43,002 nt of DNA from a virus (IMGVR_UViG_2740892012_000013:1-43002), one strand, 5' to 3'. Positions 27,164-36,788 are shown, numbered from the stretch's first letter. The notes: generated by a model not told the origin, from the sequence alone. Program-made: numbers and translations.

Positions 27164-27240
27164 GTGGCATTAGCTCAGTTGGACAGAGCAACCGCCTTCT
27201 AAGCGGTTGGTCGCAGGTTCGAATCCTGCATGCCACGCCA
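27164..27240 (+). tRNA. tRNA-Arg (anticodon UCU, reads AGA)
   Basis: Folded by hand: 7-bp acceptor stem GTGGCAT/ATGCCAC, D-arm GCTC...GAGC, anticodon stem ACCGC/GCGGT with loop CTTCTAA, T-arm GCAGG-TTCGAAT-CCTGC, discriminator G, encoded CCA. Confidence 0.9.
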
Positions 27241-33302: not shown

Positions 33303-33363
33303 CTTTACCCTCGCTTATCCACATAACTTATTGATTACATTGATAACTAAAAAGATCGTCGAT

Positions 33364-33972
33364 TCATGCCGATCTATTTTTCATCAGTGATTCATAAAAC
33401 TTTTGCCACTTATGCCGACCGAAATTAGCCTTCGAGTTACAGCTCGAACAAAGGCAAATAAGGTTCTCCTGACGACAATCTTGCTTGTCGTAATTGATGT
33501 GATGAGTTGTTAGCCTTTTGTCTGTTCCATCACAACCTGGGTTCTGACAAGTAAAACCATCTCGCTCAATAACCCTCTTGCTCGTTTCTCGGAAATCCCA
33601 CGGATACGGCAATCTCGATAATCCACCAGACCAGTTTGGATTTCCTTCCCCCTTCATCAGAGAAGAACGCATTATGTTGGAACACTGTTTCGAGCAGCAT
33701 TTATGACGCTTCTCATGACTCAAGAAAACGGAGAACGAAGATCCGCATACGCAGCATATTTTTAATACTCGCTTTAGTTCCCGATTTACCGTCTTGCCTC
33801 GCTGTGAAATTCCTACACACTGAAGTGAGCAGAACCTTGAAGATGAGTTGGCTCGCTTAACCTGATATTGCCTGCCACATACGGAGCAAACCTTTTCGAT
33901 TTTCCCACCCTTCCAATTCGGGTTTTTATCACCGGATACAATCAATCCCGCAGCATTGGGCTTCTCGCTCAT
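33364..33972 (-). CDS. HNH endonuclease
   Basis: Multiple CxxC pairs and ...TTHHINYDKQDCRQENLICLCSSCN... HNH motif. Confidence 0.7.
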   Translation of the reverse strand: MSEKPNAAGLIVSGDKNPNWKGGKIEKVCSVCGRQYQVKRANSSSRFCSLQCVGISQRGKTVNRELKRVLKICCVCGSSFSVFLSHEKRHKCCSKQCSNIMRSSLMKGEGNPNWSGGLSRLPYPWDFRETSKRVIERDGFTCQNPGCDGTDKRLTTHHINYDKQDCRQENLICLCSSCNSKANFGRHKWQKFYESLMKNRSA

Positions 33973-34439: not shown

Positions 34440-35240
34440 TTACTTGATAAATCCTGCCGCCTTTCCCCGCCTGTATTCCTCCATCAGCCACTGCGCCGGT
34501 GTTATTCCCCCCAGGGTAGCGGCGTTAGGCATACACCCGAAACTTCGCCCTGGTGGATGGTAAACGTCTCTCCCTGTGTCCGGAGGCGTACTCATGGGTT
34601 CTGGCTTTGCCTGTATGCTGATCACCGGATCGGGTATCTGCTGTCCGGAAGCCACCTTTTTCGCCCAATCATCAAGCAGCCTGCGCGCGTGTTTCTCAAC
34701 CTCAATCTCGCTAAGCTGGCGCTGATACATTGCACGGCGGGTATCACATACGACCCAGTACATAACCGGATGCCGCCACGGGAATCTTTCGGGACCACCA
34801 GGATATAAACTTTTTTCCTTGCTGTACCGGTGAAACTCCGCCATCACATCGTCAATGGTGACGCCAAGAACCATCTTGCTGTCTTTACACCACTTGATAA
34901 ATTGCCCTGGCGACGGCCAGAACGGAGATTCACTGGCGCGGGCGTGGCGCATACCAGCAGAAACCTGTTCACGGGTTCGGATCCCCCCTTCGGCAAACGC
35001 AGCAATCCACTGCTGTTTTGCAGCAACTTCCTGCTCTGGCGTCTTCAGGTTGGTTACCACTGCCGCCGGAAACAGTTGTTTCAGCTGTTTAAAAAGGGCA
35101 TCAACAAGCCTCTCTGCTGACATGTTCACCACATTGTCATTGTTGACGTACTGATGCTCATAACCTGACATGCGAGAAAGGGCTTCTCCGTCACGGTTTT
35201 GTATCGCGGTAAAAACGTTGTTCACAAGAAATCCTCCCAT
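34440..35240 (-). CDS. Replication protein P-like (DnaB helicase loader)
   Basis: ...FPAAVVTNLKTPEQEVAAKQQWIAAFAEGGIRTREQVSAGMRHARASESPFWPSPGQFIKWC aligns with lambda P (...FPASLANRDQNEVNEIRRQWVLAFRENGITTMEQVNAGMRVARRQNRPFLPSPGQFVAWC, from memory). Confidence 0.8.
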   Translation of the reverse strand: MGGFLVNNVFTAIQNRDGEALSRMSGYEHQYVNNDNVVNMSAERLVDALFKQLKQLFPAAVVTNLKTPEQEVAAKQQWIAAFAEGGIRTREQVSAGMRHARASESPFWPSPGQFIKWCKDSKMVLGVTIDDVMAEFHRYSKEKSLYPGGPERFPWRHPVMYWVVCDTRRAMYQRQLSEIEVEKHARRLLDDWAKKVASGQQIPDPVISIQAKPEPMSTPPDTGRDVYHPPGRSFGCMPNAATLGGITPAQWLMEEYRRGKAAGFIK

Positions 35241-36037
35241 GCTTCAGGGCTGTTCCAGTGCGGAACGTTGTTATCAGGTAATGTTGATTGCTTCTGTCTG
35301 CTAATCTGCAGCCGCCTTGCCAGCTTCTGCTCCCACTGTGCCTGATGGTATGCCTTACCCTCAGCCATCCAGTAAATTCTGAACTCTGCAAGTTCCTGTG
35401 CCGTTGGCAGACTGTCCAGGTAGATCCCCTGCAATGAGCTTTTCCGAAGAAAGTCATCTGATGGCTGCCATTGTTCATGCATGACAAATTTGCCTAATTG
35501 CCCTGGCCCACCAGGAGGAACAAAGTTATTCATCACGGCGTTGTTTGCTCCGGGGTCATGAGGCACAGAATCCCCGCTTTTTGTCCTGCTCTCCCTCTCT
35601 TGGTTAAATGACTGGTTATATGACTGGTTCTGGATCCCGTTTTTGGGATCATTCAACATCCCGTTTTTGGGATCATTCAACATCCCGTTTTTGGGTATAT
35701 TCCCGTTTTCGGGTATATTCCCGTTTTCGGGTTCATTGCCCCCCTCCCGGTTGCCTTTAATGTTCCCGTTTTTGGTTATATTAAGAGAGAAAACCCGCAC
35801 TCTTTTTGTCGCTCCCTTTCTCTCTCCGGTATCTGAAATAATCCCCATTTTCATGAGCGATATAAGCCCGGCCTGCACGGTTTTTTTATTCAGGCAAGTG
35901 TCTTTAACGAGGCGTTCTATGCTGGGGTAGCAGAGGTTATATTCATCGGCTCTGTCAGCCATCGAGAGCAGTATGAGCTTTAATGATGAGCTACCTGGAT
36001 CTGTCTCCCAAGCCCAATCTGTTGCATGTCTGCTCAT
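35222..36037 (-). CDS. Replication initiator, lambda O-like, with internal origin repeats
   Basis: SD GGAGAT; N-terminal HTH-like region; central peptide repeats (NGNIPENGNIPKNGMLNDPKNGMLNDPKNG) encoded by DNA iterons; followed by overlapping P-like gene. Confidence 0.7.
   Translation of the reverse strand: MSRHATDWAWETDPGSSSLKLILLSMADRADEYNLCYPSIERLVKDTCLNKKTVQAGLISLMKMGIISDTGERKGATKRVRVFSLNITKNGNIKGNREGGNEPENGNIPENGNIPKNGMLNDPKNGMLNDPKNGIQNQSYNQSFNQERESRTKSGDSVPHDPGANNAVMNNFVPPGGPGQLGKFVMHEQWQPSDDFLRKSSLQGIYLDSLPTAQELAEFRIYWMAEGKAYHQAQWEQKLARRLQISRQKQSTLPDNNVPHWNSPEAWEDFL
35636..35782. repeat. Iteron array (candidate phage replication origin) inside the O-like gene
   Basis: Six direct repeats with core CCCGTTTT(T/C)GG: two 24-bp copies (35636-35659, 35660-35683), three 18-21-bp copies (35684-35740), one more at 35765-35782. 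Confidence 0.7.
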
Positions 36038-36052
36038 GATTAATCTCCGCTA

Positions 36053-36253
36053 TCAGCTTGAATGTTGTGGGGAGGAATTAATCATGATCTGCTTAATCTC
36101 TGCCCTGATGCGACGGTTTGACTCCATGGTGCACTCAACACAGTGTCCGTTGTAAACCCAGCGTTCACTGTCATGTCCGTGCTTACATGGTTTTCCGGTG
36201 TAGTAGCGTTTAAGTCCGCGCTTTGCGGCATCAATACGTGTAATGATTTCCAT
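36053..36253 (-). CDS. Small zinc-ribbon protein at the cII position
   Basis: ATG at 36253; 66 aa with KRYYTGKPCKHGHDSERWVYNGHCVEC (Cys/His cluster). Confidence 0.45.
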   Translation of the reverse strand: MEIITRIDAAKRGLKRYYTGKPCKHGHDSERWVYNGHCVECTMESNRRIRAEIKQIMINSSPQHSS

Positions 36254-36332
36254 GGTAAGCCCTGTTATTAGTATTGGGATTACGGTTATTTTGTGCTGAC
36301 ACAAAAAAAAGATCAACCAGATTTGGTTTTTT

Positions 36333-36349
36333 ATTACCTTTGAGGTACG
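36333..36349. promoter_or_regulatory. Operator-like palindrome ATTACCTTTGAGGTACG
   Basis: Left half perfect, right half 5/7; lies between a hairpin downstream of the Cro-like gene and the Zn-ribbon gene. Confidence 0.45.
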
Positions 36350-36403
36350 AATAGATATGAAAAGACCGCCGGATGGCGGTCTACAGAGGGTTGTTGCCAG
36401 ATA

Positions 36404-36634: not shown

Positions 36635-36679
36635 AGCTATTGCCTGATATTTATTTCAGATAATAAATATTCACCCATA

Positions 36680-36734
36680 AGGTAACAAAAATCAAGGATA
36701 GTTACCTATGGGGTGCATTTACCTGTTGGGTAAT
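36680..36734. promoter_or_regulatory. Divergent immunity-region operators (clustered half-sites)
   Basis: AGGTAAC (36680-36686), GTTACCTATGGGGTGCA (36701-36717) and TTTACCTGTTGGGTAAT (36718-36734) in the 154-bp gap between Cro-like and repressor genes. Confidence 0.55.
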
Positions 36735-36788
36735 ATTGCTTTAAATTGAATCATCTACTGATTCATATATGAGGCGATTTTCCAGAAA

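What the first reader, a model, noticed from the sequence alone, without database searches (positions are those of the whole stretch)
35609..35782. Iteron array (candidate origin) embedded in the O-like replication gene and mirrored as a peptide repeat
Six direct repeats with core CCCGTTTT(T/C)GG, two of them identical 24-mers, lie inside the coding sequence and translate into NGNIPENG / PKNGMLND repeats. A short TGACTGGTT duplication sits just upstream. I infer from the lambda ori-within-O arrangement that this is the replication origin, though the iteron sequence differs from lambda's.
Basis: partly seen in the sequence, partly recalled or inferred. Interest (0 to 1): 0.5.

Follow-up and report, generated by a model that had tools for sequence, protein, structure and literature searches.

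The report
Phage origin repeats inside initiator gene
Six copies of a short DNA word inside the replication-initiator gene of a phiV10-like E. coli prophage are almost certainly the initiator's own binding sites, that is the phage replication origin laid out as in phage lambda; the repeated peptide they encode is a by-product, so this is an ordinary kind of element in a phage family where it had not been annotated.

Summary
Six exact CCCGTTTT(T/C)GG cores lie at 35636-35775, with two identical 24-mers, and a duplicated TGACTGGTT sits beside them. All are inside the minus-strand ORF 35222-36037.

That ORF encodes a two-domain replication initiator: an N-terminal winged helix (Pfam HTH_36) and a C-terminal DnaT-like domain. 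A lambda-P-type helicase-loader gene follows it. The repeats encode the linker between the two domains.

Comparative evidence shows the DNA is selected, not the peptide:
- The core CCC(A/G)AAAACGG recurs at the same place in most relatives, from Escherichia to Vibrio, Pseudoalteromonas and Desulfovibrio.
- It is read in all three frames (PKNG, xQKR, PKTE).
- Its synonymous positions are fixed, while those of the N-domain are saturated.
- It travels with the N-domain, not the C-domain.

A second conserved element, three 12/13-nt boxes (CAGAACCAGTCA...), follows the last iteron in place of lambda's strongly AT-rich tract.

The initiator is not a lambda O family member. Origin firing, binding and unwinding are inferred, not shown.

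Verdict: a lambda-style origin within the initiator gene, a new member of a known kind. Interest is modest.

The parts
35222..36037 (-). Replication initiator gene (271 aa), which contains the whole element
   Evidence: ORF list. phrog_1032 'replication initiation protein', E 1.3e-107. Pfam HTH_36 at aa 18-67 and DnaT domain at aa 184-252. 96-99% nt identity to phiV10, EC.W1-9 and phiv142-3.
35777..36037 (-). N-terminal winged-helix domain (aa 1-87), the presumed iteron reader
35763..35778 (-). Iteron 1 (distal; TAACCAAAAACGGGAA on the coding strand; read as TKNG)
35718..35733 (-). Iteron 2 (AACCCGAAAACGGGAA; read as PENG)
35700..35715 (-). Iteron 3 (TACCCGAAAACGGGAA; read as PENG)
35682..35697 (-). 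Iteron 4 (TACCCAAAAACGGGAT; read as PKNG)
35658..35673 (-). Iteron 5 (ATCCCAAAAACGGGAT; read as PKNG)
35634..35649 (-). Iteron 6 (proximal; ATCCCAAAAACGGGAT; read as PKNG)
35599..35632 (-). Three 12-nt boxes directly after the last iteron: CAGAACCAGTCAT, ATAACCAGTCAT and TTAACCAAG. Candidate unwinding or helicase-entry element.
   Evidence: TRF 12-nt unit. Two exact AACCAGTCAT copies. The block GG-N4-CAGAAYCAGTCA-NTA-GAACC..GAAYC is kept in 20 of 24 diverse relatives with 13+12 spacing, so it is read in different frames. The 30-mer duplex stability is at the 93rd-94th percentile of the window.
35570..35601 (-). Polypurine tract (88% purine on the coding strand) after the boxes. It holds a degenerate iteron-like word, GACAAAAAGCGGGGAT.
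   Evidence: One of the three most strand-asymmetric 32-mers of the window. The iteron-like word is better preserved in phiV10.
35794..35825 (-). Second polypurine tract on the other side of the array, within the codons for the wing of the N-domain
   Evidence: The most strand-asymmetric 32-mer of the window.
35243..35500 (-). C-terminal DnaT-like domain (aa 180-265), the presumed link to helicase loading
   Evidence: phmmer against PDB: DnaT chains 9zbt_D at E 6.6e-21, plus 6aep, 4ou6 and 2ru8. Pfam PF17948 at E 1.2e-15.
34440..35240 (-). Lambda-P-family helicase-loader gene. Its start overlaps the end of the initiator gene.
   Evidence: Pfam PF06992 at E 1.5e-56. phrog_109 'P-like helicase loader' at E 4.7e-92.

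Best explanation
The repeat block at 35599-35778 is the vegetative replication origin of this phiV10-like temperate phage, built on the lambda plan.

Proposed mechanism:
1. Rightward-operon transcription on the minus strand, from the cro-like side, makes the initiator.
2. Its N-terminal winged-helix domain binds the six 16-bp iterons (ATCCC-AAAAAC-GGGAT, partly palindromic, with an A-tract centre). These lie in the DNA that encodes the initiator's own interdomain linker.
3. The multi-protein complex distorts the adjacent 12-nt boxes (AACCAGTCAT x2 plus a partial copy).
4. The C-terminal DnaT-like domain brings in the P-like loader with host DnaB, and/or holds the opened single strand.

The NGNIPENG/PKNGMLND peptide repeat is a passenger. 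It exists because recent duplications of iterons had to be multiples of 3 nt to keep the frame.

Shown here:
- the repeats and their statistics;
- DNA-level selection on them;
- their position between the two domains;
- co-inheritance with the N-domain;
- the domain identities.

Inferred, not shown:
- initiator binding;
- unwinding at the boxes;
- helicase recruitment;
- that replication starts here.
For: 1. Real and non-random: six exact cores, and 0 of 100 shuffles reach the count. They form the two highest-scoring tandem arrays in the window.

2. Context: the initiator (HTH_36 plus DnaT domain) is followed by a lambda-P-family loader.

3. Same plan as the origin features in two phage records. 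In the lambda record the annotated iterons ATCCCTCAAAACGAGGGA lie in O just after the N-domain, with the same strand orientation and the same TCCC..AAAAC..GGGA design. The P22 record annotates a rep_origin inside gene 18, by similarity to lambda. PMC7466680 describes the lambdoid origin as iterons plus an AT-rich tract in the middle of O, and reports that extra iterons add residues to O.

4. DNA-level, not peptide-level, selection:
- In 120 representatives of 50%-identity clusters, the linker carries P[KE]NG 179 times, against 0 elsewhere in the proteins.
- The frame+1 reading xQKR occurs 62 times in the linker against 2 elsewhere.
- The frame+2 reading PKT[ED] occurs 26 times against 0.
- 55 of 120 proteins show at least two frames. 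Shuffled linkers give 1.3, 0.6 and 0.9 occurrences.
- In loci found by the N-domain peptide alone, 19 of 27 species genomes have at least two cores, in frames 63/11/8.
- Third-codon bases in frame-0 cores are CCC 34/34, xAA 34/34 and AAC 33/34. Background usage is 22%, 54-68% and 39%. Only 38% of third bases are shared at identical residues in the N-domain.

5. Linkage to the N-domain:
- The N- and C-domains hit different phages independently.
- SPN1S and Tyrion have the same C-domain with other N-domains and no internal array.
- The most divergent N-domains carry other repeats at the same site.

6. The linker tolerates change. Among the near-identical prophages the arrays listed run from about 4-5 cores (L147, 256 aa) to about 9 (888-nt gene), always in frame. 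Variation is concentrated in the distal iterons. aa 90-100 are modelled with low confidence.

7. The boxes after the last iteron are conserved in different frames. One copy sits in the annotated P22 origin, the only match in 5 kb where 0.02 are expected.

8. The coding strand is A-rich over T-rich, as at lambda ori.
Against: - There is no experimental evidence for this phage or any family member. I found no paper that contains the motif, and the phiV10 RefSeq record has no rep_origin feature.
- There is no strongly AT-rich tract. The lowest 40-mer GC next to the array is 40%, against 23-25% in lambda. The boxes are only at the 93rd-94th percentile of duplex instability.
- The N-domain is not demonstrably homologous to lambda O (hhalign probability 3.5%), so the analogy rests on architecture.
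- The iteron core is nearly invariant down to about 55% N-domain identity. That is unusual for a specificity determinant and could point to another reader.
- Phages of the same genus (SPN1S, Tyrion) lack an in-gene array, so this layout is not obligatory in the group.
Confidence: 0.78

Rival explanations
1. The repeats are the initiator's binding sites but serve mainly for control: autoregulation, titration or handcuffing as with plasmid iterons, or exclusion of related phages. DNA opening and helicase loading would happen elsewhere, for example in the AT-rich intergenic DNA at 36230-36350 or the immunity region at 36640-36800.
For: The least stable 30-mers of the neighbourhood are at 36644, 36740, 36328 and 36262, not in the array. 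No strong AT tract adjoins the iterons. The iteron core is shared by many phages, which would suit cross-interference between them.
Against: The conserved, frame-independent 12/13-nt boxes directly after the last iteron look like a dedicated second origin element. The layout matches the origin features annotated in the lambda and P22 records. No second repeat array or iteron copy lies in the intergenic regions. The AT-rich spots coincide with promoter and terminator regions.
Confidence: 0.1
2. The repeat is essentially a protein feature: a low-complexity, slippage-prone Asn/Gly/Pro/Lys linker selected for flexibility or length. The DNA repeat would be only its shadow.
For: The segment is a variable-length linker between two folded domains. 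In this window all six copies are in one frame.
Against: The same DNA word is read in three frames across the family. Synonymous positions of the core are fixed while those of the N-domain are saturated. The rare Pro codon CCC is used 34 times out of 34.
Confidence: 0.03
3. The words are read by something other than the initiator, such as a host nucleoid or replication protein, or the small zinc-finger-like ORF upstream. Alternatively they act chiefly as a recombination joint for swapping initiator domains.
For: The core is nearly invariant across hosts from Escherichia to Desulfovibrio. Hybrid initiators are joined exactly here, for example Edwardsiella GF-2 with this N-domain plus a lambda-O-like C-domain. 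A box copy occurs in P22, whose initiator belongs to another family.
Against: The array is strictly linked to one N-domain type and is replaced by other repeats when that domain diverges. Hosts differ widely. There is no DnaA box nearby. A recombination joint would be a consequence of shared sequence and would not explain fixed synonymous sites.
Confidence: 0.06

Closest known systems
Phage lambda ori-lambda within gene O (O-some; O-P-DnaB loading)
   Same: - Direct repeats lie inside the initiator ORF, immediately after the DNA-binding N-domain.
- Each repeat is partly palindromic with an A-tract centre (lambda ATCCCTC-AAAAC-GAGGGA; here ATCCC-AAAAAC-GGGAT), and the A-rich strand is the coding strand.
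- A P-family loader gene comes next.
- Iteron number changes the protein length, as in Stx phages.
   Different: - The N-domain is Pfam HTH_36, not Phage_rep_O, and no significant profile match was found.
- The C-domain is DnaT-like, not lambda-O-like.
- There are six iterons at 45/18/18/24/24 nt, all in frame, against four at 20/24/23 nt in frames 0, 2, 2, 1.
- There is no 23-25% GC tract. Three 12-nt boxes and a polypurine tract stand in its place.
Phage P22 origin within gene 18
   Same: The origin is annotated inside a 271-aa initiator gene. It has short direct repeats (TCGGTAAAAC) followed by GAATCAGTCA, the same word as box 1 here.
   Different: The P22 initiator has a Phage_rep_O N-domain. 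It is followed by a DnaB-type helicase gene, not a P-type loader. The repeat sequence is different, and P22 has a clear AT-rich tract.
Iteron origins of plasmids and Vibrio chromosome II (RepA/RepE/pi/TrfA, RctB)
   Different: Those iterons are intergenic. Those initiators have two winged-helix domains or a larger architecture. There was no Pfam Rep_3 or related hit here. No control-type inverted repeats were seen.
E. coli DnaT (PriA-PriB-DnaT replication-restart primosome)
   Same: The C-terminal 85 residues match the DnaT ssDNA-binding domain at E about 1e-20. DnaT acts just before DnaB-DnaC loading.
   Different: Here the domain is fused to a sequence-specific origin binder and paired with a phage P-type loader. 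The N-terminal part of DnaT is absent.

Membership tests
Lambda-type phage origin embedded in the initiator gene (functional class) | Three or more direct repeats inside the initiator ORF, at the junction of the N- and C-terminal domains | tested here: met
   Six cores at gene nt 262-401, corresponding to aa 88-134. They lie between the winged helix (aa 1-87) and the DnaT-like domain (aa 180-265).
Lambda-type phage origin embedded in the initiator gene (functional class) | Repeats with internal dyad symmetry and an A-tract, and the same orientation relative to the gene | tested here: met
   ATCCC-AAAAAC-GGGAT here, against the lambda iteron ATCCCTCAAAACGAGGGA as annotated in NC_001416.
Lambda-type phage origin embedded in the initiator gene (functional class) | Strongly AT-rich unwinding tract adjoining the last iteron | tested here: not met
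   The lowest 40-mer GC is 40% here, against 23-25% in lambda. The 30-mer stability is only at the 93rd-94th percentile. Conserved 12/13-nt boxes occupy this position.
Lambda-type phage origin embedded in the initiator gene (functional class) | Helicase-loader or helicase gene immediately downstream of the initiator | tested here: met
   Gene 34440-35240 is Pfam Phage_lambda_P at E 1.5e-56.
Lambda-type phage origin embedded in the initiator gene (functional class) | The initiator binds the repeats and replication starts there | not testable with these tools
   This needs EMSA or footprinting and origin mapping. Here there is only indirect support, from DNA-level selection and linkage to the N-domain.
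Lambda O protein family (Pfam PF04492 Phage_rep_O) | N-terminal domain matches the Phage_rep_O profile | tested here: not met
   The window protein hits HTH_36 and DnaT only. Lambda O and P22 gp18 hit PF04492 at E 6e-36 and 7e-38. hhalign of the N-domain alignment against lambda O gives probability 3.5%.
Pfam HTH_36 (PF13730) winged-helix initiators | Score above the gathering threshold, and a winged-helix fold | tested here: met
   40.7 bits against a cut-off of 25. The AF2 model has pLDDT 88.7 with an H-H-H-H-wing topology.
DnaT DNA-binding domain (PF17948) | Score above the gathering threshold, and a match to solved DnaT chains | tested here: met
   57.5 bits against a cut-off of 25. PDB 9zbt, 6aep and 4ou6 match at E 1e-19 to 1e-21.
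Plasmid iteron initiators (Rep_3 / RepA-RepE-pi type) | Two tandem winged-helix domains and a match to the family profile | tested here: not met

The most novel reading that the evidence does not exclude
The iteron array plus the three 12/13-nt boxes (CAGAAYCAGTCA / TAGAACCAGTCA / TAGAACCA) may define a widespread, so far undescribed origin class. It would serve HTH_36-type phage initiators across Proteobacteria. In this reading the unwinding or helicase-entry site is a sequence-specific element rather than a merely AT-rich tract. It would be read as single-stranded or distorted DNA by the initiator or a conserved host factor, and it is shared even with the P22 origin. A side possibility: each added iteron also lengthens the initiator's own linker by 6-8 residues, so the number of sites and the reach of the protein scale together.
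Probability: 0.3. Interest if true: 0.5.

Novelty: new member of a known kind. Interest (0 to 1): 0.3.

Why it matters
- It gives a concrete, testable origin annotation for a prophage type found in 424 of 5,426 complete E. coli genomes.
- By extension it does the same for a large initiator family, with 531 clusters at E<=1e-10.
- It explains the odd Asn/Gly/Pro/Lys repeat in proteins that databases label 'DnaT-like ssDNA-binding domain-containing protein' or 'primosomal protein'.
- It is a clean case of a cis-acting DNA element dictating protein sequence: the same word is read in three frames.
- It yields a simple sequence signature, CCC(A/G)AAAACGG repeats followed by CAGAAYCAGTCA, for finding origins in related phages.
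- The shared iteron core raises the possibility of replication interference between co-resident prophages.

Tried and rejected
- Profile comparison of the N-domain with lambda O gave probability 3.5%. No homology claim is made.
- AlphaFold2 on the full-length protein with a shallow alignment of near-identical homologues gave pLDDT 38. I used it only to note an unstructured linker. I re-ran the N-domain alone with a deeper alignment.
- The first large protein search returned only relatives at 86% identity or more. It was useful for prevalence and length variants, not for diversity.
- The DnaA-box scan found none near the array; the nearest is at 33315.
- For GATC clustering, three sites at 35633-35671 only tie the window maximum for 70 nt. 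That is too weak to argue Dam/SeqA control.
- No AT-rich unwinding tract was found.
- The two terminator-like hairpins the scan reported inside the array are just neighbouring iteron arms pairing. I rejected them as terminators.
- A literature search for the motif and for phiV10/epsilon15 origins found nothing relevant in the held library.
It worked with a closer five-sequence alignment.

Full report
**Observation**

The + strand of 35600-35790 carries six exact copies of CCCGTTTT(T/C)GG, at 35636, 35660, 35684, 35702, 35720 and 35765. Allowing one mismatch, the only other hit in 43 kb is at 39172. Dinucleotide shuffles give a mean of 1.39 hits, and none of 100 reach seven.

Tandem Repeats Finder reports a perfect 24-nt unit of 2.6 copies (35634-35695), an 18-nt unit of 2.8 copies (35683-35732) and a 12-nt unit of 2.4 copies (35601-35629). 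The first two are the two highest-scoring arrays in the window.

The block lies inside the minus-strand ORF 35222..36037 (271 aa). Its translation contains TKNGN...PENGNIPENGNIPKNGMLNDPKNGMLNDPKNGIQNQSYNQSFNQ. The description is therefore correct. Because the gene is on the minus strand, the TGACTGGTT duplication lies downstream of the repeats in gene orientation.

**What the gene and its neighbours are**

The ORF has an N-terminal Pfam HTH_36 domain (aa 18-67) and a C-terminal DnaT DNA-binding domain (aa 184-252). It matches PHROG 'replication initiation protein' at E 1e-107.

The C-terminal 85 residues match solved E. coli DnaT chains at E about 1e-20. DnaT is the primosome component that acts just before DnaB-DnaC loading.

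The next gene, 34440-35240, is a lambda-P-family helicase loader. Upstream lie a small ORF, a terminator-like hairpin, a cro-like gene and a divergent CI-like repressor.

The window is a complete phiV10/TL-2011b-like (Uetakevirus) prophage with an integrase at its right end. The initiator gene occurs in 424 of 5,426 complete E. coli genomes.

**Anatomy in gene orientation**

The six 16-mers read (T/A)(A/T)CCC(A/G)AAAACGGGA(T/A), and the three proximal ones read ATCCCAAAAACGGGAT. They start at gene nt 262, 307, 325, 343, 367 and 391. The spacings of 45, 18, 18, 24 and 24 nt are all multiples of three, which is why a peptide repeat appears.

Four nucleotides after the last iteron come CAGAACCAGTCAT, ATAACCAGTCAT and TTAACCAAG. 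A 32-nt tract of 88% purine follows. A second such tract lies on the other side of the array. These are two of the three most strand-asymmetric 32-mers in the window.

**Comparison with annotated origins**

In the lambda RefSeq record the four annotated iterons (ATCCCTCAAAACGAGGGA and variants) lie in gene O at aa 117-145, directly after the N-terminal domain. Their A-rich strand is the coding strand. They are followed by a 40-mer of 23-25% GC.

The present iterons share the TCCC..AAAAC..GGGA design, the orientation and the position. Three things differ:
- The lambda iterons fall in frames 0, 2, 2 and 1, so they encode no peptide repeat.
- The lowest GC next to the present array is 40%.
- The 12-nt boxes are only at the 93rd-94th percentile of duplex instability.

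P22 carries an annotated rep_origin inside gene 18. It has its own repeats, then GAATCAGTCA, then an AT-rich tract. That word is the same as box 1 here. It is the only match in 5 kb of P22, where 0.02 are expected.

PMC7466680 describes the lambdoid origin as iterons plus an AT-rich tract in the middle of O. It also reports that the two extra iterons of Stx phages add 13 residues to O.

**Is the DNA or the peptide selected?**

Four independent lines point to the DNA.

1. Among phage records that share only the N-domain (Edwardsiella GF-2, Vibrio Her, Acinetobacter Ab105-2 and AP22, PPompW), the same word recurs at the same place, and some copies are in another frame, for example CACCCAAAAACGGGATG read as TQKRD.

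2. A full phmmer scan with aa 1-87 found 3,581 cluster representatives, 531 of them at E<=1e-10. I examined 120 full-length representatives:
   - The linker carries P[KE]NG 179 times, against 0 elsewhere in the proteins.
   - The frame+1 reading [STAP]QKR occurs 62 times against 2.
   - The frame+2 reading PKT[ED] occurs 26 times against 0.
   - 105 of 120 carry the motif, and 55 show it in at least two frames.
   - Shuffled linkers give 1.3, 0.6 and 0.9 occurrences.

3. In species genomes retrieved by N-domain peptide patterns alone, 19 of 27 loci have at least two cores (frames 63/11/8). The commonest 8-mers of gene nt 200-620 are CCCAAAAA..AAAAACGG in most of them. Hosts range from Superficieibacter, Proteus and Vibrio to Pseudoalteromonas, Marinobacterium, Wohlfahrtiimonas and a Desulfovibrio.

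4. In frame-0 copies from 15 of these loci the synonymous bases are fixed: CCC 34/34, xAA 34/34 and AAC 33/34. Background usage in the same genes is 22%, 54-68% and 39%. In the N-domain only 38% of third bases are shared at identical residues.

The boxes behave the same way. GG-N4-CAGAAYCAGTCA-NTA-GAACC-N7-GAAYC is present in 20 of 24 diverse loci with 13+12 spacing. The same word is thus read as QNQS and then as EPVI.

**Linkage to the N-domain and modularity**

tblastn hits to the N-domain (aa 1 to about 146) and to the C-domain (aa about 154-271) fall on different phages.

SPN1S and Tyrion belong to the same genus and have the same DnaT-like C-domain, but they have other N-domains and no internal array.

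Conversely, this N-domain with its iterons is fused to different C-domains:
- a lambda-O-like C-domain followed by a P-like gene in GF-2;
- another C-domain followed by a DnaB-type helicase in the Acinetobacter phages.

The most divergent N-domains (53% identity or less) carry different repeats at the same site: AACCAGTCGGAAA in Sphingobium, and CCACCAGTGCC in Zoogloeaceae. This is the pattern expected if the N-domain reads the repeats and the C-domain recruits the loading partner.

**Plasticity**

Among the near-identical prophages, the 18-nt unit is present 1-4 times and the 24-nt unit 1-5 times. Genes range from 792 to 888 nt and stay in frame. Substitutions are concentrated in the distal iterons, and the proximal ATCCCAAAAACGGGAT copies do not vary. 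PMC7466680 cites earlier work reporting that only the two lambda iterons next to the AT-rich tract are needed for replication in vitro.

**Conclusion and limits**

The best-supported reading is a lambda-style origin embedded in the initiator gene, in an initiator family that is not lambda O. The peptide repeat is a by-product. I put this at about 0.78.

Binding, unwinding, helicase recruitment and origin firing are all inferred. I found no experimental work on this family in the held library, and the phiV10 record annotates no origin.

Two things remain unexplained: the lack of an AT-rich tract, and the near-invariance of the core across distant hosts. The main rival (about 0.1) is that the sites are control sites and opening happens elsewhere.

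The most novel reading the evidence allows is that the 12/13-nt boxes are a sequence-specific unwinding or loading signal shared across this family and with P22.

A specialist would find this element expected rather than surprising: a new member of a known kind.

Noticed in passing
window 36034-36044 and 36077-36087 (minus-strand mRNA): A perfect 11-nt inverted repeat (TCATGATTAAT / ATTAATCATGA) pairs the end of the upstream small ORF with the Shine-Dalgarno spacer and ATG of the initiator. The RNA folds at -17.2 kcal/mol, z -3.09. This may be translational coupling. It is identical in phiV10 and phiv142-3 but not kept in the Superficieibacter homologue.
   Followed up: partly
window 35570-35601 and 35794-35825: Two of the three most purine/pyrimidine-asymmetric 32-mers of the whole window bracket the repeat block. 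They resemble each other (CCCGC..TTTTTGTC..CTCTCT). The coding strand of 35566-35790 has A 89 against T 35, like the lambda origin.
   Followed up: partly
L214 (phage P22) 1414-1423, inside the annotated rep_origin: GAATCAGTCA sits directly after the last P22 origin repeat. It is the same word as the first 12/13-nt box of this family. It is the only match in 5 kb, where 0.02 are expected by chance.
   Followed up: partly
window 35571-35586 (minus strand): A degenerate seventh iteron-like word, GACAAAAAGCGGGGAT, lies on the far side of the boxes. It is closer to the consensus in phiV10 (GACAAAAAACGGGGAT).
   Followed up: no
L002 (Edwardsiella phage GF-2) 1501-2343: The initiator is a hybrid: this family's N-domain and iterons (ATCCCAAAATTGGGAT x3), then a C-terminal domain closely resembling lambda O. 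The joint is in the linker/origin region.
   Followed up: partly
L237, L239, L240, L241, L232 (Sphingobium, Zoogloeaceae, Desulfovibrio, Methylotenera, Acinetobacter): The most divergent N-domains have other repeat units at the same position. Several contain ACCAGT (AACCAGTCGGAAA x4-5, CCACCAGTGCC x4), which recalls the 12-nt boxes rather than the iteron.
   Followed up: no
window 36053-36316 (minus strand): A small Cys/His-rich ORF (phrog_1081, function unknown, with a weak endonuclease-VII-like hit) lies between the cro-like gene and the initiator. It is conserved in epsilon15-like phages.
   Followed up: no
window 33364-33972 (minus strand): An HNH-endonuclease-like ORF abuts the DUF1064 / resolvase-like gene. 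phiV10 has no such gene annotated at that place.
   Followed up: no
window 27164-27240: A phage-borne tRNA-Arg (anticodon TCT).
   Followed up: no
proteins P0271-P0378: All 120 proteins listed in the profile search of this initiator family are 47-152 aa long, and several are labelled 'partial'. They may be ends of short contigs or frameshifts in the repeat array. I did not examine this.
   Followed up: no
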